Positions 2,276-62,703 are shown, counted from the stretch's first letter. The stretch: DNA of 64,000 nt from an uncultured Candidatus Saccharibacteria bacterium (GCA_964509605.1 CAZDXF010000001.1:8276-72275), one strand, 5' to 3'. Notes: generated by a model from the letters alone, not told the origin. A program made the numbers and translations.

Positions 2276-4644
2276 ATTGGGTAGATCTCAACAAAAAAAT
2301 ATCTATTTGGCGACCGGCGGTTTTTTTGGAGAGAACTGTTGGGCACTCTACGAGGAGGGTTTTAAAACAAACCTTTTTGTTGATAGCGGTTCTGTCTTTT
2401 GCATTCGCTTCCGGGATTTTTATTGAGCCAAACAGCGCTCTGACAGGACTTTTCTTTATTTTCTTTTTCGCTTTTCTACTTGCTGTATTGGCAGAAAGCT
2501 TTTTTTATTCTTTTTTCTTCAGGGAATCTGAAAGCAGTTCTTTTGGGTTTGAGACCGCTATTTTTGTTTCATATACAGATAGAGATGATTTAACCAAAGG
2601 TTTTTTCTCTTCAAAATATGCGGAAAGTATTTTGCTTAGGTTGGGCATAGACAAAGATTCTGCTAAACACTTTTTAGATCGTAGACAAAGAAAAATTTCA
2701 CCAGCTCAAGCCGTTTTTCCAGATTCCGCTTCTATTTTAGAATCGTATCTTTTGGGGATTGTCTCTGCAGATAAAGAGTTTGAAGCGTTTTTGTTCTTGC
2801 ACGGAGCAAGTCCAGAAATTTTTGTTAGATGTTCAAAATGGGTTATTGGCTCTCTGCGCAGAAAAATAGACAAGGAAAGGTGGTGGAGCAAGAAAAGACT
2901 TTCTTCAATAAAACCAATAGGCGGAAGTTGGTCTTATGGAAAAACTTATTTTCTAGAGCGTTTTAGCACACCTTTAAGGGTGGCTGTGTCTCCAGAATCT
3001 TCTTATCACAGGGAAGAAGCCATCTCGCTTGAGACCATTCTTTCCAAAGGCAGAGAATCCAACGCTTTGATAGTTGGAGATGAAGGTGTTGGAAAAATGG
3101 AAGTAATAGAAACTTTAGTCCAAAAGATTAGAAATGGTAAAAGCTCTAAATTCTTAGAATCAAAAAACTTTATTGTGTTTGAAGCTGTAAATTTTGTTTC
3201 CGCGATGGGAGAAAAAGAAATTTTTGAAAGAGCTTTTATAAAACTAATGAACGAAGCATCTTCAGCTGGAAATGTTGTCCTCATAATTCCAGATTTTTCC
3301 GGTTTTTTGAAAAATGCGGAATCCATTGGAAGTGATGTCTCAGAGATTATAGATCCATATCTTTCTTCTTCGGGTCTTCAGGTGGTGGCAGTCTCAAATA
3401 CCAGAGCATTTCATTCGGTTTTAGAGGCAAATCAGGCAATAATGCAAAGATTTGATACCGTTTTAGTCAAAGAAGGAGCTGAAGCGGAAATTTTTTCTAC
3501 TTTGGAAGAGGGGATTTCTTTTATGGAAAGACGAGAGGGTGCTTTCTTTACATACCAAGCAATAGCAGAAGCGCTTTCTGGTGCGGAAAGGTACTTTGTT
3601 GGTTCTCCAATTTTGGACACTGCGCTTGATATCCTCTCTCAATCTACGGCCAGAGCATTTTCTCAGGGCAGAAATTTAGTCTTAAAAGAAGATGTTTTGA
3701 GTATCATAAAGTCAGAAACAGGAGTTCCTGTCGGTGAAGTCTCTGAAGCGGAACAGGAAAAGCTTGCGAAATTGGAAGAACACCTGCGACAAAGGATTGT
3801 AGGGCAAGACGAGGCCATTACAACCATAAGTAATGCTTTGCGTCGTTCTCGGGCTGGTATTGGAAATCCAAATAAACCAATAGGTTCTTTTCTTTTCTTG
3901 GGCCCTACTGGTGTGGGGAAGACAGAAACCGCCAAAGCTCTGACAGAAATATTTTTTGGGCAAAAAGGCAAGATGATGCGTCTTGATATGTCGGAATACA
4001 ACTCTCCAGATGCTTTGAACCGACTTATCGGATTTGCTGGAACTGGTGATGGAGGGGTGCTAGGTTCTATGTTGCGAGAAAACCCTTATGCTGTTCTTTT
4101 GCTGGATGAGTTTGAAAAGACAAATGAAAAAGTTTTAGATTTGTTTCTGCAGATTTTGGACGAAGGAATTTTTTCAGATGTTTTGGGTAGGAAGGTCAGT
4201 GCTAGAAATACAATTATCATAGCCACATCAAATGCGGGGAGCGATATTATATTTGAATCTGTAATGGCTGGAGATAACTTGGAGGATAAAAAAGATTTTA
4301 TAATAGAAGAAATTATAAAAAGAGGGGTGTACAAACCAGAGCTTCTAAATCGTTTTGACGGAATAACACTTTTCCATCCATTAAACGAGAATGAATTAAA
4401 AGAAGTCGCTGGTCTTATGCTTGAGCGTCTAGCATTTAGACTTAAAGCTCAAGGTATTACTTTGAATCCGACAGAAGATCTCATACAATTTTTAGTTTCA
4501 AAAGGTGGAGACCCAAAATTTGGAGCCAGAGCTCTCAATCGTGAGATTCAGGAGACAGTTGAAAAGGTCATTGCTGACAAAATTTTGCGAGGTGAACTTC
4601 GGCCCGGTTCGGAACTTTATCTTTCTTCTTCCGATCTTATCTGA
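2272..4644 (+). CDS. Clp/Hsp100-family AAA+ ATPase with N-terminal TM segments and a degenerate D1 Walker A
   Basis: D2 Walker A GPTGVGKTETAKAL, sensor/arginine region and ClpB-D2-small-like C-terminus. D1 is GDEGVGKM (Ser/Thr lost). Clp_N-like repeat AESILLRLGIDKD. Two hydrophobic helices at the N-terminus. Start taken at the ATGA-coupled ATG 2272 rather than the track start 2212. Confidence 0.7.
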   Translation: MNWVDLNKKISIWRPAVFLERTVGHSTRRVLKQTFLLIAVLSFAFASGIFIEPNSALTGLFFIFFFAFLLAVLAESFFYSFFFRESESSSFGFETAIFVSYTDRDDLTKGFFSSKYAESILLRLGIDKDSAKHFLDRRQRKISPAQAVFPDSASILESYLLGIVSADKEFEAFLFLHGASPEIFVRCSKWVIGSLRRKIDKERWWSKKRLSSIKPIGGSWSYGKTYFLERFSTPLRVAVSPESSYHREEAISLETILSKGRESNALIVGDEGVGKMEVIETLVQKIRNGKSSKFLESKNFIVFEAVNFVSAMGEKEIFERAFIKLMNEASSAGNVVLIIPDFSGFLKNAESIGSDVSEIIDPYLSSSGLQVVAVSNTRAFHSVLEANQAIMQRFDTVLVKEGAEAEIFSTLEEGISFMERREGAFFTYQAIAEALSGAERYFVGSPILDTALDILSQSTARAFSQGRNLVLKEDVLSIIKSETGVPVGEVSEAEQEKLAKLEEHLRQRIVGQDEAITTISNALRRSRAGIGNPNKPIGSFLFLGPTGVGKTETAKALTEIFFGQKGKMMRLDMSEYNSPDALNRLIGFAGTGDGGVLGSMLRENPYAVLLLDEFEKTNEKVLDLFLQILDEGIFSDVLGRKVSARNTIIIATSNAGSDIIFESVMAGDNLEDKKDFIIEEIIKRGVYKPELLNRFDGITLFHPLNENELKEVAGLMLERLAFRLKAQGITLNPTEDLIQFLVSKGGDPKFGARALNREIQETVEKVIADKILRGELRPGSELYLSSSDLI

Positions 4645-12645: not shown

Positions 12646-12726
12646 GCTTCTCTCACCACTTTCCGCACCCCCATCTTTTCACTATCGCCTCCACCTCTTC
12701 TTCTCCCACCCCATTAAACTATTCCC

Positions 12727-12750
12727 ATATTCTCAAGAATACCAGAATAG
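12727..12750 (+). repeat. degenerate copy of the ATTCTCAAGAAT palindromic element overlapping the arsR promoter
   Basis: TATTCTCAAGAATACCAGAATAG, followed by TATAAT at 12752-12757. Confidence 0.5.
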
Positions 12751-12764
12751 TTTATAATGAGGGT

Positions 12765-13091
12765 ATGAGAATGGGCAAAATAGAGAAAGCAGATAAAACA
12801 ATTAAAATAAGCCAAGACAAAACAGGTAAAACACCAAAACAATTGGAAAGGTATTTTAAAGGTGTTGCTAACCACCGTAGAATCGCCATACTTTTGCTAG
12901 TACTTAAGGACCCAGGGATTTCGGTGGAGGGTATATCAGAAAACTTAAATTGTAATTTTAAAACAATTTCTGAACACACACGCAGATTAGTCCAAGCCGG
13001 CTTATTAAATAAAAACTACAAAGGAAACACAGTAGAGCATCGAGTGTCGCCCTACGGCAAGATGTTTTGCAATTTTATCGGAAAATTCTAA
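12765..13091 (+). CDS. ArsR/SmtB-family HTH transcriptional regulator
   Basis: HRRIAILLLVLKDPGISVEGISENLNCNFKTISEHTRRLVQAGLL is a winged HTH of ArsR type. Confidence 0.65.
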   Translation: MRMGKIEKADKTIKISQDKTGKTPKQLERYFKGVANHRRIAILLLVLKDPGISVEGISENLNCNFKTISEHTRRLVQAGLLNKNYKGNTVEHRVSPYGKMFCNFIGKF

Positions 13092-13092
13092 A

Positions 13093-13136
13093 CCAAAACT
13101 ACTCTGGTATTCTCAAGAATACCAGAGTAGTTTTGG
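13093..13136 (+). repeat. 44-bp near-perfect palindrome (21-bp arms, core ATTCTCAAGAAT); likely ArsR operator / repeat family member
   Basis: CCAAAACTACTCTGGTATTCT-CA-AGAATACCAGAGTAGTTTTGG. Confidence 0.7.
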
Positions 13137-13188
13137 GTGGGGTTAAGAAAGTTTAAATGTGGAAAGGTGGCAGAGGGCGGGGTGTATA

Positions 13189-42948: not shown

Positions 42949-43024
42949 TGGTGGACCCTACCGGATTCGAACCGGTGACCTCCTCATTGCAAATGAGGCG
43001 CTCTACCAACTAAGCTAAGGGCCC
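42949..43024 (-). tRNA. tRNA-Ala (anticodon TGC), CCA encoded
   Basis: GGGCCCT acceptor with G3:U70, anticodon loop TTTGCAA, T-loop TTCGAAT, 3' ACCA. Confidence 0.85.
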
Positions 43025-43094
43025 GTTTTTTTAAAGTTAAAATTTTAACTAACTAGCAACATGTCGCTCGGACCCTGTCCGCCCATCTGGCGGA

Positions 43095-43114
43095 AACTAA
43101 GCTAAGGGCCCGTT
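43095..43114 (-). repeat. 20-nt duplicate of the tRNA-Ala(TGC) 5' end
   Basis: AACTAAGCTAAGGGCCCGTT is identical to 43008-43027. It is followed by the hairpin CCGCC-agatg-GGCGG. Confidence 0.65.
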
Positions 43115-43234
43115 AAAAAAAAGTTTTTAGCTAATAGCTTATAGCTGTCAGTTAAAAACAACAGAGGAAAGAATACATTAAATGTTTGGCAAATTCAAAT
43201 TGTTTTGTGATATATTTTCTTTCTATACACAACA

Positions 43235-43307
43235 GGGGATGTAGCTCAATTGGTAGAGCGCGCCCATGGCATGGGCGAGGTAAGGGGTTCGAAACCCCTC
43301 ATCTCCA
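43235..43307 (+). tRNA. tRNA-Ala (anticodon GGC)
   Basis: GGGGATG acceptor with G3:U70, anticodon loop ATGGCAT, T-loop TTCGAAA, discriminator A. Confidence 0.85.
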
Positions 43308-43316
43308 CAAAACAGA

Positions 43317-47317: not shown

Positions 47318-47461
47318 ATGAAATTATCTATTGGAATAGTGGGTTTACCGAATGTTGGCCCCAAACAAAACAGTGGAATCAAGCACTTCGTGCCATAGTG
47401 AGTTCCTGTTTTGTTCGGGGCGAGTAGTGGTGATATAGTTTTTGTTCACATCGCATTTAAT
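47318..47461 (+). repeat. 42-nt duplication of the ychF 5' end plus 102-nt hairpin insert
   Basis: 47318-47359 equals 47462-47503 with one mismatch. The insert carries the inverted repeat CCCAAACAAAACAG...CTGTTTTGTTCGGGG. Confidence 0.7.
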
Positions 47462-48463
47462 ATGAAATTATCTATCGGAATAGTGGGTTTACCGAATGTT
47501 GGCAAATCAACGCTTTTTAATACATTAACTAAAAAATCTGTACCCGCAGAAAACTATCCGTTTTGTACGATTGATCCATCTGTAGGCATTGTTCCTGTAC
47601 CTGATGAGAGACTTAATAAACTTTCAGAATTTAGTAAATCAGAGGAAACAATACCCGCTGTGGTTGAGTTTGTTGATATTGCAGGTCTTGTAAAAGGTGC
47701 TTCTCTTGGAGAAGGTTTGGGAAATAAATTTTTGAGCAATATTCGTGAAGTAGACGCAATTGCACAAATGGTCAGAACTTTCAAAGATGATGATGTTGTG
47801 CATGTCCATGGAAAAGTTGATCCAATTTCTGATATTGAAGTAATAAATTTGGAGTTGATTTTGGCGGATACAGAGACGGTCTCAAAAAGACTCGGAAGTT
47901 TGGTAAGAGATGTTAAAAGTGGAAATAAAGAAGCAATGGCCGAAGAGATGGCTCTCAAAAAAGTGGAGATTACTTTAAAAAACGGAAATTTAGCAAATAA
48001 AACCGAGCTAAATGAGGAAGAAAAAAAGATTGTGAAAGGTTTGCACTTGCTCACGATGAAACCAATTCTTTACATTTTGAATGTTTCAGAGGCGAGTGAA
48101 AATGTGGCAGATGAAATTGCTTCAAAAATCCCCGGTAAATCTGTAAAAGTAGATCCTGTTTTTGGAAATGGTTTGGATGATCTAATAAAAGCGAGTTATG
48201 AATTGCTTGGTTTAGAAACTTTTTTTACAACAGGAGAAAAAGAAACACGAGCTTGGACAATAGAAAAAGGTTCTACAGCTCCAATTGCTGGCACCGCCAT
48301 TCACACAGATTTTAGAGATAAGTTTATAAGGGCAGATGTTATAGCTTGGGATAAGCTTTTAGAAGCCGGATCTTATGCAAATGCTAGAGAAAAAGGGTGG
48401 GTGAGAACTGAAGGCAAGGAATATATTGTCAAAGATGGCGATGTCGTAGAGTTTAAAATTTAA
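47462..48463 (+). CDS. ychF: ribosome-binding ATPase YchF
   Basis: GIVGLPNVGKSTLFN, a TGS domain, and C-terminal GDVVEFKI. Confidence 0.9.
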   Translation: MKLSIGIVGLPNVGKSTLFNTLTKKSVPAENYPFCTIDPSVGIVPVPDERLNKLSEFSKSEETIPAVVEFVDIAGLVKGASLGEGLGNKFLSNIREVDAIAQMVRTFKDDDVVHVHGKVDPISDIEVINLELILADTETVSKRLGSLVRDVKSGNKEAMAEEMALKKVEITLKNGNLANKTELNEEEKKIVKGLHLLTMKPILYILNVSEASENVADEIASKIPGKSVKVDPVFGNGLDDLIKASYELLGLETFFTTGEKETRAWTIEKGSTAPIAGTAIHTDFRDKFIRADVIAWDKLLEAGSYANAREKGWVRTEGKEYIVKDGDVVEFKI

Positions 48464-57970: not shown

Positions 57971-58768
57971 ATGAGTAAATATTACAATCCAAAAAGAAGT
58001 GAAAATTGGAATTATGGTGGAAAAAACTGGAGATTGTCTCGTTCTAAAATAGATTTATTTTTAGAGTGTAAGAGATGTTTTTATATTGATAATAAGCTAG
58101 GAACCGCAAGGCCGAAAGGATTTCCTTTCACATTAAATAGTGCGGTAGACAAGCTTTTAAAAAAGGAATTTGATATTCACAGGGCTCAAGAAACCACTCA
58201 TCCAATGATGGAAAGTTATGGTCTGGAAGCCGTTCCTTTTCAACATCCTAAAATGGATGAGTGGAGGGATGCTTTAAAAGGTGGGGCTCAATATGTTCAT
58301 CCGGAAACGGGGCTTTTAGTGACGGGGGCAGTTGATGATATTTGGATAGATAAAAATGGGGAATTGCTCATCGTTGATTATAAGGCCACTTCGAAAGAGG
58401 AAGAGGTGAATTTGGATGCGGAATGGCAAGACGGGTACAAAAAACAGATGGAAGTTTACCAGTGGCTTTTCAGAAATAATGGGTTCAAGGTTTCTGATAC
58501 AGGATATTTTGTGTATGTAAACGGTTTGACCGATAAAGAGTCATTTGATGGAAAATTGGAATTTGATGTAAAAATTATTCCTTATACAGGAAAAACAGAT
58601 TGGATAGAAAAAATTCTTATAGAAATTAAAAAAACTTTAGAGAGCGATACAATTCCGGAGCAATCTTTAGAGTGCGATTACTGTACTTACACAAATGCGG
58701 TTGGAAATCTTGATAAGAAAAAAGTTGAAAGACCAGACAAGGGAAACTTAAAAGGAACGCTTTTTTGA
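57971..58768 (+). CDS. Cas4/RecB-like PD-(D/E)xK nuclease with Cys clusters (standalone)
   Basis: N-terminal LECKRCFY, core DDIWIDKNGELLIVDYKAT, C-terminal ECDYCTY. Confidence 0.55.
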   Translation: MSKYYNPKRSENWNYGGKNWRLSRSKIDLFLECKRCFYIDNKLGTARPKGFPFTLNSAVDKLLKKEFDIHRAQETTHPMMESYGLEAVPFQHPKMDEWRDALKGGAQYVHPETGLLVTGAVDDIWIDKNGELLIVDYKATSKEEEVNLDAEWQDGYKKQMEVYQWLFRNNGFKVSDTGYFVYVNGLTDKESFDGKLEFDVKIIPYTGKTDWIEKILIEIKKTLESDTIPEQSLECDYCTYTNAVGNLDKKKVERPDKGNLKGTLF

Positions 58769-59361
58769 TGACAAAATTTGAAGAAATGAAAAAGATTCGG
58801 GACGAGCTCCTTGTTGGAGAAAATCTGCCTCTTTTTAAGTTTAGAAAAGAAAATGGTTATTTACCTGTAGTTGGAGAGGGAAGTCATGATGCCAAAATAC
58901 TTTTTGTTGGAGAAGCCCCTGGAGAGAATGAAGCGAAAACAGGAAAGCCTTTTTGTGGAAGAGCGGGTAAAATTTTAGATGTTTTGCTTAATCACATAGG
59001 TTTAAAAAGAGAAGAAGTTTACATAACTAATATTGTGAAAGACCGACCTCCAAAAAACAGAGATCCGATGCCTGACGAAATTTATGCCTACGCCCCATTT
59101 TTAAAAAAGCAAATAGAAATTATTCAGCCTAAAGTGGTCGCTACGCTTGGAAGACACTCTATGACTCACATTCTCAAGTTTTTTGCTTTAAAAGACAAAA
59201 TAGAGCCGATAAGCAAAATGCACGGAAGACTCCTTGAAGCCGATTCAGAGTTTTGTAAAGTCAAAATAGCAACACTTTACCATCCGGCTGTAGCCGTATA
59301 TGATCAAAGTAAACTGAGTGAACTTAAGAAGGATTTTGAAGTCATAAAAGCTTTTATTTAA
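58765..59361 (+). CDS. uracil-DNA glycosylase family 4
   Basis: GEGSHDAKILFVGEAPGENEAKTGKPFCGRAGKILD. Confidence 0.85.
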   Translation: MMTKFEEMKKIRDELLVGENLPLFKFRKENGYLPVVGEGSHDAKILFVGEAPGENEAKTGKPFCGRAGKILDVLLNHIGLKREEVYITNIVKDRPPKNRDPMPDEIYAYAPFLKKQIEIIQPKVVATLGRHSMTHILKFFALKDKIEPISKMHGRLLEADSEFCKVKIATLYHPAVAVYDQSKLSELKKDFEVIKAFI

Positions 59362-59372
59362 TATGGATTTTA
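59299..59372 (+). repeat. left copy of ~74-nt direct repeat (UDG 3' end + ATGGATTTTAAT) flanking the inserted peptidase gene
   Basis: 59299-59340 equals 60644-60685 with 1 mismatch, and AATGGATTTTAAT is shared. Confidence 0.7.
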
Positions 59373-59382
59373 ATTATTTATT

Positions 59383-60621
59383 ATGAAAAAAGACTATACC
59401 CCTAAAAAAAGAATACTTGAAAATTATGCAAAAGTGCTGGTAAATTTTGCTTTGGGTGGAGGATCTAGAATTGGAGGGAAAGGTATAAAAAGAGGGGATG
59501 TTGTACTGGTTTCAGCTCCAGAAGTTGCAAGACCCCTTTACGCAGAAATTCTTAGAGCAATTTGGAAATCCGGTGGACATGTTATTGGGCGTTATGCTCC
59601 AAGCAACGATGCTAGTTTTAAGATGGATAGAGAATTTTATATTCTAGCATCGAAGGAACAACTTAATTATTTTCCAGAAAAATTAATGCGCGGACAAATT
59701 GATGAAATTGACCACTCAATCTTTATTATTGCGGAAACAGATAAAGAATCCATGAAAGGTATCGATCCGAAAAAACTAATGACCAAAGGTGAAGCATGGA
59801 AACCATATATGAACTGGAGAAATGAAAAAGAAAGCAGAGGAAATTTTACTTGGACACTTGGGTTGTATGGAACAAAAGCAATGGCAAAAGAAGCAAGAAT
59901 GACAGAAAAAGAATATTGGGAACAGATCATCAAGGCTTGCTTTTTGGACAAAAAAAATCCTATCAAAGAATGGAGAAAAATTTCAGAACAAATAGAAATA
60001 TACAGAAAAAAACTTAACGCACTAAAAATTGAAAAGATTCATGTTGTTGGCCCCGATGCAGATTTGTGGTTAAAAATTGGAGAAAAAAGAGCGTGGAACG
60101 GAGGTACGGGACGAAACATACCAAGTTTTGAATTATTCACTTCACCAGATTGGCGTGGAACAAATGGTTGGATACGTTTCAATCAACCGTTGTATCGTTA
60201 CGGCAATCTCATAGAAGGGATTCAGTTGTGGTTTAAGAATGGAAGAGTTATAAAAAGCAAAGCGAGAAAAAATGAAAAAGTTTTAAAAGCAATGATATCA
60301 ACTAAAAATGCTGACAAAGTTGGAGAGTATTCACTCACAGACAAAAGATTCTCTAGAATTACAAAATTTATGGCAGAAACCCTATATGATGAAAATGTGG
60401 GAGGACCACATGGAAATACTCACATAGCTTTGGGAAGCTCTTATCATGACTGTTTCTCTGGAAATCCCAGCAAGATATCGAAAAAAGAATGGGAAAGATT
60501 AGGATACAACGATTCTTCTGTGCACACAGACATTATATCGACAACCCCCAGGACTGTTACGGCTTATTTACCTAAAGGAAAAATAAAAGTGATTTACAAG
60601 AATGGTCAGTTTACATTATAG
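59383..60621 (+). CDS. aminopeptidase, M29 (AmpS/PepS-like) family
   Basis: 412 aa; the N-terminal and central patterns fit the thermophilic metalloprotease M29 family. Confidence 0.7.
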   Translation: MKKDYTPKKRILENYAKVLVNFALGGGSRIGGKGIKRGDVVLVSAPEVARPLYAEILRAIWKSGGHVIGRYAPSNDASFKMDREFYILASKEQLNYFPEKLMRGQIDEIDHSIFIIAETDKESMKGIDPKKLMTKGEAWKPYMNWRNEKESRGNFTWTLGLYGTKAMAKEARMTEKEYWEQIIKACFLDKKNPIKEWRKISEQIEIYRKKLNALKIEKIHVVGPDADLWLKIGEKRAWNGGTGRNIPSFELFTSPDWRGTNGWIRFNQPLYRYGNLIEGIQLWFKNGRVIKSKARKNEKVLKAMISTKNADKVGEYSLTDKRFSRITKFMAETLYDENVGGPHGNTHIALGSSYHDCFSGNPSKISKKEWERLGYNDSSVHTDIISTTPRTVTAYLPKGKIKVIYKNGQFTL

Positions 60622-60643
60622 AAACACCGTTTTGCACATTAAT

Positions 60644-60719
60644 TATGATCAAAGTAAACTGAGTGAACTTAAGAATGATTTTGAAACTCTAAAAAATATT
60701 ACCTAAAATGGATTTTAAT
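60644..60719 (+). repeat. right copy of the ~74-nt direct repeat
   Basis: Duplicates the UDG 3' end and the mazG-like start. Confidence 0.7.
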
Positions 60720-61034
60720 CAATATCAAAAAGAAGCCTTTTCTACCAGGATTATAAAATATGATCCCTCTTTTATATATTCAGCTCTAGGGTTAGCTGGA
60801 GAAAGTGGAGAAGTTGCAGAAAAAATAAAAAAAATTTTAAGAGATGATGGAGGGGTTGTAACGGAAGAAAAGAGAGAGGAAATAAAAAAAGAATTGGGAG
60901 ATGTTTTGTGGTACCTGTCTCAACTGTCAGCTGATTTGAATATAGAATTTAATGATGTGGCAATCTCTAATATAGAAAAAATAAAATCCAGAAAGGAGAG
61001 GGGGCAAACAAAAGGATCTGGTGATAATAGATAA
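60708..61034 (+). CDS. MazG-like nucleotide pyrophosphohydrolase
   Basis: GLAGESGEVAEKIKK...ELGDVLWYLSQLS. Confidence 0.75.
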   Translation: MDFNQYQKEAFSTRIIKYDPSFIYSALGLAGESGEVAEKIKKILRDDGGVVTEEKREEIKKELGDVLWYLSQLSADLNIEFNDVAISNIEKIKSRKERGQTKGSGDNR

Positions 61035-61035
61035 A

Positions 61036-62703
61036 ATGGAATCTTCAGAAATCAGAAAAAAATTTTGGGATTTTTTTGAAAAAAGAGGACACAAAATAGT
61101 GCCGTCGGCGTCTTTGGTACCACTAAACGATCCTTCCGTACTTTTCACTACAGCAGGAATGCAACAATTCAAACCTTATTACACAGGGTTGGGCGATCCG
61201 ATGAAAGATTTTGGTTCTTTAAACACGGTTTCAATCCAAAAATGTGTTAGAACTTCAGACATAGAGGAAGTAGGTGATGAAAGGCATCTGACTTTTTTTG
61301 AAATGTTGGGAAATTTTAGCTTTGGAGGATACTTCAAAAAAGAAGCGATTCAGTACGGTTACGATTTTATTGTTAAAGAGATGGGATTGAAAATTGATTA
61401 TGTGTCCGTGTTTGAGGGCGACAACAATATCCCCGAAGACAAAGAGTCAGAAGAAATCTGGAAATCAATTGATCCGAGTCTTGAAATAAAGAAATTTGGC
61501 AGAGAAGATAATTTTTGGGGACCGACTGGAGATGAGGGGCCGTGTGGGCCAACGACAGAGATTTATGTGGATGGAATTGAAGTTTGGAATATTGTTTTCA
61601 ATCAATATTTTCAAAATAAAGACAAAACCTTAAAAAATCTTGAAAGATTTGGGGTGGATACCGGTATGGGCCTTGAGAGACTCGCTCTAGTAAGTCAGTT
61701 TCCTGGAAAAGCAGGTGAAAAAACAGTTTTTGAAACCGATTTGTTTTCAAAAATATTAGAAATTCTTCCGCAAGAAATACCAGAAAGAAAAAAAAGGATT
61801 TTGGCAGATCACTCAAGAGCAATTGCCTTTATGATAAGCGACGGAGTCAGGCCTTCTAACAGAGGAGCCGGATACATACTTAGAAGAATCTTGCGAAGAT
61901 TGCTCGCTCAATTTGAATTTGAGCACATTAAATTAGCATTAGATTGGGTGATTCCAAAATATAATCAAATTTACAAAGAACTAGACAGAAATTTGATCTG
62001 GGAAGTTTTAGACAGAGAATGGAGTCAATTTATAGTAGCTCTTAATACCGGAGTAAAAGAATTGAATAAGTTAGATTCTCTTGATTCTAAAAAAGCTTTT
62101 GAACTCTACAGCACTTATGGTCTTCCGTTTGATGTAATGAAAGACAGGTTTCCCAATCTTGATATCAAAGAATTTGAAAAAGAATTTAATAGACACCAAG
62201 AAATTTCTAGAACAGGTTTGGAGCAAAAATTTAAAGGTGGATTGGCAAATACGGAAGAAAAAACAGTTCGTCTGCACACAGCACACCACCTTCTTTTGTC
62301 CGCTCTTCAAGAGGTTTTAGGGAAGAATGTAAAACAAAAAGGTAGTAATATAAATGAGGAGAGACTAAGAATTGATTTTTCTTTTGATAGAAAAATGACA
62401 TCCGAAGAAATTCAAAAAGTAGAGGAAATAGTAAATAAAAACATCACTTCTGGTCTTGAAGTTGTGAGAAAAGAAATGAAGAGGGAGGAGGCAGAGAAAA
62501 TTGGAGCCGAAATGGAGTTCGGTGCCAAATATCCAGAAACAGTTTCTGTGTATTTTATAACTGATAAGGACGGCAATGTAATATCAAAAGAGTTTTGTGG
62601 GGGTCCGCATGTAGAAAACACTTCTGAATTAGGAATTTTCAAAGTAAAAAAAGAAGAAGCTGTCGCTTCTGGAATAAGAAGAATAAAAGCTGTTCTTGAA
62701 TAA
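61036..62703 (+). CDS. alaS: alanyl-tRNA synthetase (short form, catalytic + tRNA-recognition region)
   Basis: HKIVPSASLVP.NDPSVLFTTAGMQQFK, FEMLGNFSFGGYFK. Confidence 0.85.
   Translation: MESSEIRKKFWDFFEKRGHKIVPSASLVPLNDPSVLFTTAGMQQFKPYYTGLGDPMKDFGSLNTVSIQKCVRTSDIEEVGDERHLTFFEMLGNFSFGGYFKKEAIQYGYDFIVKEMGLKIDYVSVFEGDNNIPEDKESEEIWKSIDPSLEIKKFGREDNFWGPTGDEGPCGPTTEIYVDGIEVWNIVFNQYFQNKDKTLKNLERFGVDTGMGLERLALVSQFPGKAGEKTVFETDLFSKILEILPQEIPERKKRILADHSRAIAFMISDGVRPSNRGAGYILRRILRRLLAQFEFEHIKLALDWVIPKYNQIYKELDRNLIWEVLDREWSQFIVALNTGVKELNKLDSLDSKKAFELYSTYGLPFDVMKDRFPNLDIKEFEKEFNRHQEISRTGLEQKFKGGLANTEEKTVRLHTAHHLLLSALQEVLGKNVKQKGSNINEERLRIDFSFDRKMTSEEIQKVEEIVNKNITSGLEVVRKEMKREEAEKIGAEMEFGAKYPETVSVYFITDKDGNVISKEFCGGPHVENTSELGIFKVKKEEAVASGIRRIKAVLE

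What the first reader, a model, noticed from the sequence alone, without database searches (positions are those of the whole stretch)
59299..60719. Peptidase M29 gene inserted between UDG and mazG-like gene, flanked by ~74-bp direct repeats
The last 42 nt of the UDG ORF plus the spacer and the mazG-like start (ATGGATTTTAAT) occur twice, once on each side of the aminopeptidase gene. The left copy even retains a vestigial MDFNYLL* mini-ORF. The ancestral order was evidently UDG-mazG, and a whole gene was inserted with duplication of the junction. This behaves like a cassette integration without a visible integrase.
Basis: seen in the sequence. Interest (0 to 1): 0.65.

Follow-up and report, generated by a model that had tools for sequence, protein, structure and literature searches.

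The report
Aminopeptidase gene wedged into duplicated gene junction
A complete aminopeptidase gene sits between two copies of a 76-base gene junction that is single and unbroken in the two closest known relatives; this is a real scar of recombination at a variable spot in a tiny-genome (Patescibacteria) bacterium, not a new kind of mobile cassette.

Summary
A 76-nt direct repeat (59299-59374 and 60644-60719, 65/76 identical, first 32 nt exact) flanks a 1,269-nt segment holding one intact Peptidase_M29 gene. The repeat unit is the last 63 nt of the UDG gene, 1 nt, and the first 12 nt of the MazG gene. The two closest relatives found carry exactly this junction once, with no M29 gene, so an "empty site" exists.

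The "cassette" reading is weak. The nearest M29 orthologues (77-79% identical) all lie in the same slot, UDG-M29-AlaS, in more distant Paceibacteria and have no flanking repeats. There is no attC-like structure, integrase, transposase, terminal inverted repeat or second copy.

The repeat is mosaic. The 42-nt core is near-identical and shares lineage-specific bases. The next 22 nt are as diverged as between species. An identical 8-mer, TTAATTAT, straddles both novel joints.

Best reading: an illegitimate, microhomology-level recombination or template switch merged two alternative contents of a variable UDG|AlaS slot. It duplicated the tight junction, so both neighbouring genes survived, and the core was later homogenised. 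Timing and polarity remain unresolved: re-insertion in this lineage, or an ancestral structure lost in the relatives. A second locus (ychF) shows the same architecture. Interest is modest.

The parts
58765..59361 (+). Family-4-type uracil-DNA glycosylase gene (UDG). Its last 63 nt form part of the left repeat copy, and this copy is functional.
   Evidence: Pfam PF03167, E=5e-31. Full-length alignment with six orthologues.
59299..59374 (+). Left copy of the 76-nt junction repeat: UDG 3' end, stop, 1 nt, and the first 12 nt of MazG.
59363..59386 (+). Vestigial MazG start (ATGGATTTTAAT) read as the mini-ORF MDFNYLL*. Its stop overlaps the M29 ATG.
   Evidence: In all fetched loci the 12-mer occurs otherwise only at MazG starts, apart from one site in L123 that matches no gene.
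59375..60643 (+). Unique segment between the repeats (1,269 nt): 8 nt, the M29 gene, and 22 nt of unknown origin.
   Evidence: No similarity to the flanks beyond the 76-nt repeat.
59383..60621 (+). Intact aminopeptidase gene (Peptidase_M29, 412 aa).
   Evidence: Pfam PF02073, E=3e-93, full-length match. Orthologues are 77-79% identical and lie in the same slot elsewhere.
59370..59377 (+). TTAATTAT straddling the left novel joint (repeat end | insert start).
   Evidence: The identical 8-mer occurs at both joints. The chance of two random joints sharing 8 nt across the joint is about 3e-4.
60639..60646 (+). TTAATTAT straddling the right novel joint (insert end | repeat start).
60644..60719 (+). 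Right copy of the junction repeat: a relic of the UDG 3' end (60644-60706), 1 nt, and the functional MazG start.
60602..60706 (+). 34-codon ORF that starts inside the last M29 codons, runs through the 22-nt spacer and the UDG relic in the old UDG frame, and stops 1 nt before the MazG ATG. It may be a translational-coupling bridge; this is an inference only.
60708..61034 (+). MazG-type NTP pyrophosphohydrolase gene (108 aa).
   Evidence: Pfam PF03819. The closest relatives are 90% and 84% identical.
61036..62703 (+). Alanyl-tRNA synthetase gene, the conserved right border of the variable slot. The MazG-stop/1 nt/ATG junction is shared with L083 and L084.

Best explanation
The region between the conserved UDG and AlaS genes is a variable slot in Paceibacteria. 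This genome's small clade carries MazG there, welded to UDG as stop/1 nt/ATG. More distant relatives carry the M29 aminopeptidase there.

In this genome the M29 gene was placed into the UDG-MazG junction by a non-site-specific event. Either a microhomology-mediated template switch or a double illegitimate recombination would fit. The source was DNA of a related genome, or an alternative allele in the ancestral population.

The event duplicated 76 bp of the junction. The left copy therefore still completes UDG, and the right copy still supplies the MazG start and its upstream context. The leftovers are a 4-codon MazG stub and a 20-codon UDG stub.

Later the first 42 nt of the two copies were homogenised by gene conversion, or were otherwise recently shared. 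The last 22 nt of the UDG tail stayed diverged.

Shown: the repeat, the empty sites, the positional orthology of M29, the mosaic, the shared 8-mer at both joints, and the absence of mobile-element features. Inferred: the mechanism, the source of M29, and the timing.
For: Structure:
- The two copies are in register, and each holds the stop, 1 nt and ATGGATTTTAAT.
- The homology boundaries are sharp on both sides.

Empty site:
- It is found in two independent metagenomes.
- The MazG-AlaS junction is shared by all three clade genomes. So a UDG-MazG-AlaS state existed before the present arrangement.

M29 is native to the slot:
- L087, L089, L090, L031 and L008 carry it there.
- M29 identities are star-like, consistent with origin inside the group.
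- M29 has the same GC content as its flanks.

The slot is variable. It is empty, or holds M29, M16, M3 or other genes, in different relatives.

Mechanistic clues:
- An identical TTAATTAT straddles both joints.
- No mobile-element features were found.
- A second locus in the same window (ychF, 47318-47503) joins two alternative upstream arrangements seen singly in two relatives. The join runs through a 42-nt duplicated gene start.

Background from the literature: gene-turnover hotspots that lack mobile elements but recombine at flanking core genes are documented (PMC5635113). Homology-facilitated illegitimate recombination is a known route (PMC6382021).
Against: - Landing next to UDG, exactly where M29 orthologues sit in other lineages, is a large coincidence for an illegitimate insertion. 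Homology guidance by UDG would predict a homologous left crossover, not a joint 12 nt into MazG.
- The 22 nt after the M29 stop do not resemble the 1-9 nt M29-AlaS spacers of sampled relatives. The source context is therefore unknown.
- The mosaic needs an extra event. Polarised sites give 4 shared / 0 private changes in the core and 1 shared / 7 private in the tail (p=0.01).
- No closer relative (M29 above 79% identity) exists in the databases to polarise the event.
Confidence: 0.55

Rival explanations
1. The repeat-flanked structure UDG-J-M29-J-MazG-AlaS is old and was ancestral to the small clade. M29 was never absent from this lineage. The two relatives lost M29 cleanly by recombination between the two junction copies, so their "empty sites" are secondary. 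The core identity in the window reflects continuing or recent gene conversion.
For: - M29 occupies its orthologous position, and its distances to the outgroups scale with those of AlaS.
- The tails of the two copies are as diverged (10/22) as orthologous tails between species (7-10/22). Both tails carry private changes.
- The relatives' UDG tails are slightly nearer to the window's right (relic) tail (7 and 9 differences) than to its left tail (9 and 10). Deletion through the core would predict this.
- The clade's branching order is unresolved.
- The ychF locus shows junctions shared with different relatives, yet near-identical duplicate copies. That also calls for conversion.
Against: - A founding event that put M29 inside a UDG-MazG junction is still needed, so this changes timing rather than kind.
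- Maintaining identity over 42 nt at 1.3 kb distance by conversion is inefficient.
- The unconstrained 12-nt MazG stub is still 12/12 identical.
- It requires loss of M29 in two or three lineages. L128 apparently lacks close M29 and MazG genes; this is inferred.
Confidence: 0.3
2. Tandem duplication followed by random loss. An ancestor had UDG-MazG-M29-AlaS. A tandem duplication starting 62 nt inside UDG, followed by loss of the first MazG body and of the second M29 copy, swapped the gene order and left the two stubs.
For: It explains both stubs and keeps M29 resident. In the intermediate, long MazG repeats would readily delete to give UDG-MazG-AlaS in the relatives. Nothing fetched excludes such an intermediate.
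Against: - It needs four or five events.
- The MazG-stop/1 nt/AlaS-ATG junction is shared by all three clade genomes. It must therefore predate them, which adds a precise deletion.
- No genome with the UDG-MazG-M29 order was found among the 80 GTDB, 36 JGI and look-up loci.
Confidence: 0.07
3. Site-specific, att-like integration of a small non-autonomous gene module by a recombinase encoded elsewhere. The identical core, or the 8-mer TTAATTAT, is the crossover site. The left tail plus the MazG stub is a surrogate gene end carried by the element. The model is a phage or island that integrates into a gene's 3' end, or an integron cassette.
For: An identical core with diverged arms is the classic attL/attR pattern. 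The same 8-mer occurs at both joints. The M29 segment plus one repeat copy could excise as a 1,345-bp circle.
Against: - No integrase or transposase lies in the insert or in the syntenic neighbourhood.
- No attC-like fold or GTTRRRY core. No inverted terminal repeats.
- The module is found nowhere else. M29 orthologues lack flanking repeats. There are no viral hits.
- The 8-mer site does not exist in the empty junction of the relatives.
Confidence: 0.05
4. Assembly artefact: a chimera of two co-existing strains (UDG-M29 type and UDG-MazG type), or a mis-threaded path through a 32-nt repeat. The true state would be an empty site plus a 1,345-bp circle or tandem array.
For: The window comes from a metagenome assembly. 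The k=31 graph is ambiguous at the exact 32-mer, and the Logan contigs break there.
Against: - Both novel joints (MazG stub|M29, and M29 spacer|UDG relic) lie inside one Logan contig that is identical to the window (L001). They therefore exist in reads and cannot come from two simple parental strains.
- A repeat of only 32 exact bases is spanned by ordinary reads and by larger k.
- The two copies differ right after the 32-mer, so the paths are distinguishable.
Confidence: 0.03

Closest known systems
Gene-turnover hotspots without mobile elements, driven by recombination with related DNA at flanking core genes (Oliveira et al. 2017, PMC5635113)
   Same: A slot between two conserved core genes (UDG and AlaS) has different contents in related genomes. 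No integrase or transposase is present.
   Different: Double homologous crossover in the flanks would replace the slot content. Here two alternative contents were merged through two non-homologous joints with a 76-bp junction duplication.
Homology-facilitated illegitimate recombination in natural transformation (de Vries & Wackernagel 2002; Prudhomme et al. 2002; as summarised in PMC6382021)
   Same: Related DNA is inserted without a dedicated recombinase. The joints are at short identities: TTAAT/TAT here, 3-10 bp in the literature.
   Different: The classical products have one homologous crossover. By my own knowledge (not checked here) they usually delete recipient DNA. Here both joints are illegitimate and recipient DNA is duplicated. 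Competence of this organism is unknown.
Tandem duplication with a templated insertion at the junction (replication template switching of the FoSTeS/MMBIR type; own knowledge, not checked in the library)
   Same: The anatomy is a 76-bp duplication with 1,269 bp of other sequence at its junction and short identical motifs at both joints.
   Different: It is described mainly in eukaryotes and E. coli stress models. The template for M29 has not been identified here.
Integration into the 3' end of a gene with duplication of the gene end (tRNA- or icd-targeting prophages and islands; own knowledge)
   Same: One functional and one relic copy of a gene's 3' end flank the inserted DNA. The core is identical and the arm is diverged.
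   Different: No integrase is present, the cargo is a single housekeeping gene, no element copies exist elsewhere, and the repeat also contains the start of the downstream gene.
IS1549/IS1634 insertion sequences with long, variable target duplications (8-514 bp; PMC2266710)
   Same: A long target-site duplication flanks the inserted DNA.
   Different: These elements encode a DDE transposase, have terminal inverted repeats and are multi-copy. None of this is present.
Integron gene cassettes
   Same: A single ORF with almost no flanking sequence is inserted in the operon orientation.
   Different: There is no attC, no GTTRRRY core at the joints and no IntI. The flanking repeat is target-derived.

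Membership tests
Integron gene cassette | attC recombination site (imperfect palindrome of 57-141 nt that folds as single-stranded DNA) at the 3' end of the cassette | tested here: not met
   Only 22 nt of unique sequence follow the M29 stop. ssDNA folds of 60612-60720 on both strands are no better than shuffles (z=+1.1).
Integron gene cassette | GTTRRRY core site at the cassette boundaries, and a nearby IntI integrase with attI | tested here: not met
   No GTTRRRY at 59290-59400 or 60600-60720. The neighbouring genes are housekeeping, with no tyrosine recombinase.
Insertion sequence or transposon with long target duplication (IS1634 family) | Transposase gene and terminal inverted repeats inside the target duplication | tested here: not met
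   The only substantial ORF in the insert, with the sole Pfam match, is Peptidase_M29. No inverted repeat joins the insert ends.
Insertion sequence or transposon with long target duplication (IS1634 family) | Multiple copies, or occurrence at other loci or in other genomes | tested here: not met
   Single copy in the window. M29 orthologues elsewhere lack flanking repeats. No viral contigs match.
Integrase-mediated island or prophage in a gene's 3' end (attL/attR) | Direct repeats with an identical core, and one arm supplied by the element as a surrogate gene end | tested here: inconclusive
   The pattern is present: core 41/42 identical, tail 12/22. Gene conversion explains it equally well.
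Integrase-mediated island or prophage in a gene's 3' end (attL/attR) | Element-encoded or cognate site-specific recombinase | tested here: not met
   None in the 1,269-nt insert or in the syntenic +/-12 kb. The rest of the genome could not be searched.
Homology-facilitated illegitimate recombination product | One end joined by homologous crossover in an anchor, the other at a 3-10-bp microhomology | tested here: inconclusive
   Short identities sit at both joints (TTAAT|TAT), but both joints are non-homologous. No donor sequence is available to define the microhomology.
Homology-facilitated illegitimate recombination product | Natural competence and RecA in the host | not testable with these tools
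   Only a 64-kb window is available.
MGE-free gene-turnover hotspot | Variable gene content between the same two conserved core genes across related genomes | tested here: met
   The UDG|AlaS slot is empty in L003, L009, L019 and L024. It holds M29 in L008, L031, L087, L089 and L090, and MazG in L083 and L084. M16- and M3-like peptidase-like or other genes fill it elsewhere.
Tandem duplication-random loss | Intermediates or relatives with the pre-duplication order (UDG-MazG-M29) or with two copies | tested here: not met
   None among 130 fetched loci. Sampling of the clade is thin, at four lineages.

The most novel reading that the evidence does not exclude
In this Patescibacteria lineage, duplicated tight gene junctions may act as portable homology sites. 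A gene flanked by two junction copies could loop out as a small circle (here 1,345 bp) by recombination between the copies. It could then re-enter any relative that carries the single junction. That would be an integrase-free, RecA-only way of shuffling single genes. The two examples within 64 kb (M29 and the ychF upstream segment), and the recently homogenised cores, would be its footprints.
Probability: 0.1. Interest if true: 0.6.

Novelty: new member of a known kind. Interest (0 to 1): 0.3.

Why it matters
It is a clean natural example, with empty sites in relatives, of how a very compact genome can take in or re-order a gene at a stop/1 nt/start junction without damaging either neighbour. 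The junction itself is duplicated.

It also shows that single-gene flux at a core-gene-flanked slot in candidate-phyla-radiation bacteria can occur without any mobile-element machinery.

The mosaic repeat and the second, similar locus hint that recombination between very short direct repeats is active in this lineage. This bears on how gene order evolves in these uncultured organisms. It does not reveal a new type of element or function.

Tried and rejected
- Chance repeat: rejected. The exact repeat is 32 nt, against at most 19 nt in shuffles.
- Simple duplication plus neutral drift: rejected because the differences cluster (p=2e-4) and by the shared/private test (p=0.01).
- M29 as compositionally foreign DNA: no GC shift.
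- Donor of the type UDG-M29 that already carried the MazG stub: the UDG-M29 spacers of L087, L089, L090, L031 and L008 have no ATGGATTTTAAT.
- MazG arriving together with a hitch-hiking UDG end from a donor in which the two are adjacent: no such adjacency exists outside the clade, in 80 UDG loci and 36 MazG loci.
- A longer decayed duplication beyond the 76 nt: no residual similarity.
- A recombinant UDG gene: the alignment shows no obvious breakpoint.
- Integron, IS and phage readings.
- Rfam on the window, the ychF insert and the relatives' upstream element: only three tRNAs.
- A JGI-wide exact-pattern scan for the UDG core found nothing. That collection evidently lacks even L083's contig.
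- The UDG slot of the fourth lineage (L128, Logan SRR30281353_66065) could not be fetched.

Full report
**Observation**

The region reads as follows, all on the + strand:
- PD-(D/E)XK nuclease, 57971-58768.
- UDG, 58765-59361.
- Peptidase_M29, 59383-60621.
- MazG, 60708-61034.
- AlaS, 61036-62703.

The repeat finder gives 59299-59374 and 60644-60719 as a 76-nt direct repeat. It is 65/76 identical, without gaps, with spacing 1345. It is the longest direct repeat in the 64-kb window. Its exact 32-nt stretch compares with 15-19 nt in 30 Markov shuffles.

Each copy holds the last 63 nt of a UDG reading frame including the stop, 1 nt, and ATGGATTTTAAT. The left copy completes the real UDG and ends in a MazG stub (MDFNYLL*). 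The right copy is a UDG relic followed by the real MazG.

No similarity extends beyond the 76 nt on either side. M29 has the same GC content as its flanks.

**Is it an assembly artefact?**

A k=31 assembly of run SRR15237813 (Logan) has a 1,373-nt contig identical to window 59301-60673. It contains both novel joints. A second contig starts at 60646. A 12.7-kb contig starts at 46636 and, if colinear, ends inside the repeat core. The breaks are exactly where a 32-nt exact repeat must break a k=31 graph. Both joints therefore exist in reads. A chimera of two simple strains is excluded. Only the threading through the 32-mer rests on the original assembler.

**Relatives**

The organism is a Paceibacteria-type member of the Patescibacteria. 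The best species-representative UDG match is 67% identical, in a Candidatus Zambryskibacteria genome.

The order MnmA, ATP-cone/Mrr, PD-(D/E)XK, UDG, [slot], AlaS is widely conserved. The slot contents vary:
- Empty in L003, L009, L019 and L024.
- M29 in L031 and L008.
- Genes that look like M16 or M3 peptidases, or other genes, elsewhere.

The closest MazG proteins (90% and 84% identical) come from two independent metagenomes. Both show PD-(D/E)XK-UDG-MazG-AlaS with UDG-stop/1 nt/MazG-ATG and no M29. This is the predicted empty site. The MazG-stop/1 nt/AlaS-ATG junction is also shared by the three genomes.

MazG next to UDG or AlaS was found nowhere else, in 80 UDG loci and 36 MazG loci.

By contrast, the closest M29 proteins are only 77-79% identical. 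All sit in UDG-M29-AlaS, without a MazG stub and without flanking repeats.

Pairwise identities:

| Comparison | M29 | AlaS |
|---|---|---|
| Window vs those genomes | 77-79% | 55-58% |
| Among those genomes | 73-77% | 51-62% |

The window's M29 is therefore as far from them as they are from each other. That fits long residence in the group, or an unsampled related donor, equally well.

**The repeat is a mosaic**

The 11 differences lie at positions 33, 43-46, 52, 53, 55, 59, 60 and 64. Ten fall within 22 nt (p=2e-4).

| Segment | Between the two copies | Against the orthologous junctions of L083/L084 |
|---|---|---|
| Core (1-42) | 1 difference | 8-9 differences |
| Tail (43-64) | 10 differences | 7-10 differences |

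I polarised the changes on sites where L083 and L084 agree. The core has 4 shared-derived and 0 private changes. The tail has 1 shared and 7 private changes (Fisher p=0.01). So the cores had a common ancestor very recently, while the tails have been separate for most of this lineage's private history. Simple duplication followed by drift does not fit. Either the structure is old and the core was homogenised by gene conversion, or the event joined diverged parents.

**The joints**

The same 8-mer, TTAATTAT, straddles both novel joints (59370-59377 and 60639-60646). Two random joints in this window share 8 nt across the joint with probability about 3e-4. This points to joining at short identities, by template switching or microhomology-mediated recombination. 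It could also mark a short crossover site. The relatives' empty junction has no such site.

**Tests of mobile-element readings**

- The insert holds only M29.
- It has no terminal inverted repeats.
- It has no attC-like fold (z=+1.1) and no GTTRRRY at the joints.
- It has no viral relatives.
- The syntenic +/-12 kb holds only housekeeping genes.
- Long target duplications are known for IS1549/IS1634 (8-514 bp; PMC2266710). Those elements carry transposases and inverted ends.

**Mechanism**

The only one-step account of both stubs is that M29 was placed 12 nt into MazG at a pre-existing UDG-MazG junction while 76 bp were duplicated. The anatomy is a short tandem duplication with a templated insertion at its junction.

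The duplication explains why the product is viable in a genome where genes abut. UDG keeps its C-terminus, and MazG keeps its start and upstream context. A 34-codon ORF (60602-60706) even bridges the M29 end to the MazG ATG. Its role is only inferred.

Two points remain unexplained. M29 ended up next to UDG, its orthologous position. And the 22 nt downstream of M29 have no counterpart in sampled relatives.

The positional coincidence gives weight to the rival reading that the structure is ancestral to the clade and the relatives lost M29 by recombination between the repeats. Clade branching is unresolved. A fourth lineage, L128, could not be read at this slot.

**Second locus**

At 47318-47503 the first 42 nt of ychF occur twice (41/42 identical), 144 nt apart. 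The left copy follows an upstream segment orthologous to that of L130 (80% identical). The right copy follows one orthologous to that of L128 (86% identical). The two copies differ from each other at 1 site but from the relatives at 6-9 sites. This is the same architecture and the same paradox as at the UDG/MazG core. It suggests a recurrent process, with conversion between short repeats, in this lineage.

**Comparison with known systems and verdict**

The locus behaves as a gene-turnover hotspot that lacks mobile elements and lies between core genes (PMC5635113). Its joints are of the illegitimate or microhomology type known from homology-facilitated illegitimate recombination (PMC6382021). 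It differs in duplicating rather than deleting or replacing recipient DNA.

It is not an integron cassette, an IS element or an integrase-borne island by the features tested. It is a real and tidy rearrangement scar, a new example of a known kind of process, and of modest interest.

Noticed in passing
window 47318-47503: The first 42 nt of ychF are duplicated (41/42 identical) around a 102-nt segment containing a strong hairpin (fold z=-3.5). The left copy follows an upstream segment orthologous to L130. The right copy follows one orthologous to L128. So two alternative arrangements seen singly in relatives are joined in series, as at the M29 locus. The Logan contig L132 confirms the sequence.
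   Followed up: partly
window 43008-43038 and 43095-43125: A 31-nt direct repeat (84% identical) covers the 5' end of the minus-strand tRNA-Ala(TGC) gene (42949-43024) plus upstream bases. A partial tRNA 5' fragment is thus duplicated 87 nt away, next to a second tRNA-Ala(GGC) at 43235-43308.
   Followed up: no
window 12716-12768 and 13096-13148: Two copies of a 53-nt element (77% identical) flank a small ORF at about 12772-13090. Each copy contains a near-perfect palindrome (AAACTACTCTGGTATTC-TCAA-GAATACCAGAGTAGTTT). This could be an operator or terminator pair, or a small inverted-repeat element.
   Followed up: no
L008 7833-9107, L013 7598-8866 (-), L030 6621-7937 (-), L012 6662-8470, L033 6660-8492: In other Paceibacteria the same UDG|AlaS slot holds other apparent peptidase genes in place of, or beside, M29. 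By motif only, they look like the M16 insulinase type (HFLEH) and the M3 oligoendopeptidase-F type (HEMGH). The slot seems to exchange functionally similar genes.
   Followed up: partly
L128 about 4370-4470 and L130 about 4420-4520: A conserved non-coding stretch between the flavodoxin-like gene and ychF is shared by two relatives (TTTGCATCCC.CAAACAT.TCTGATATTT..GTCAGATAGGCGTAAGTA..). It is absent from the window at this position. It has no Rfam match. It may be an undescribed small RNA.
   Followed up: partly
L087 4968-5000, L089 4983-5000, L090 3811-3836: The UDG-M29 spacers of three relatives carry a TGnTATATT (extended -10-like) motif 6-7 nt before the M29 ATG. This hints at near-leaderless transcription of M29 in those genomes. 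The window has no exact equivalent.
   Followed up: no
window 60681-60709: The best promoter-like match in the region (TTGAAA-17-TAAAAT, 10 of 12) lies in the right repeat copy. Two of the tail differences (positions 43 and 64 of the repeat) raise its score relative to the left copy and to the relatives. Its -10 element overlaps the MazG ATG, so a role in MazG expression is doubtful.
   Followed up: no
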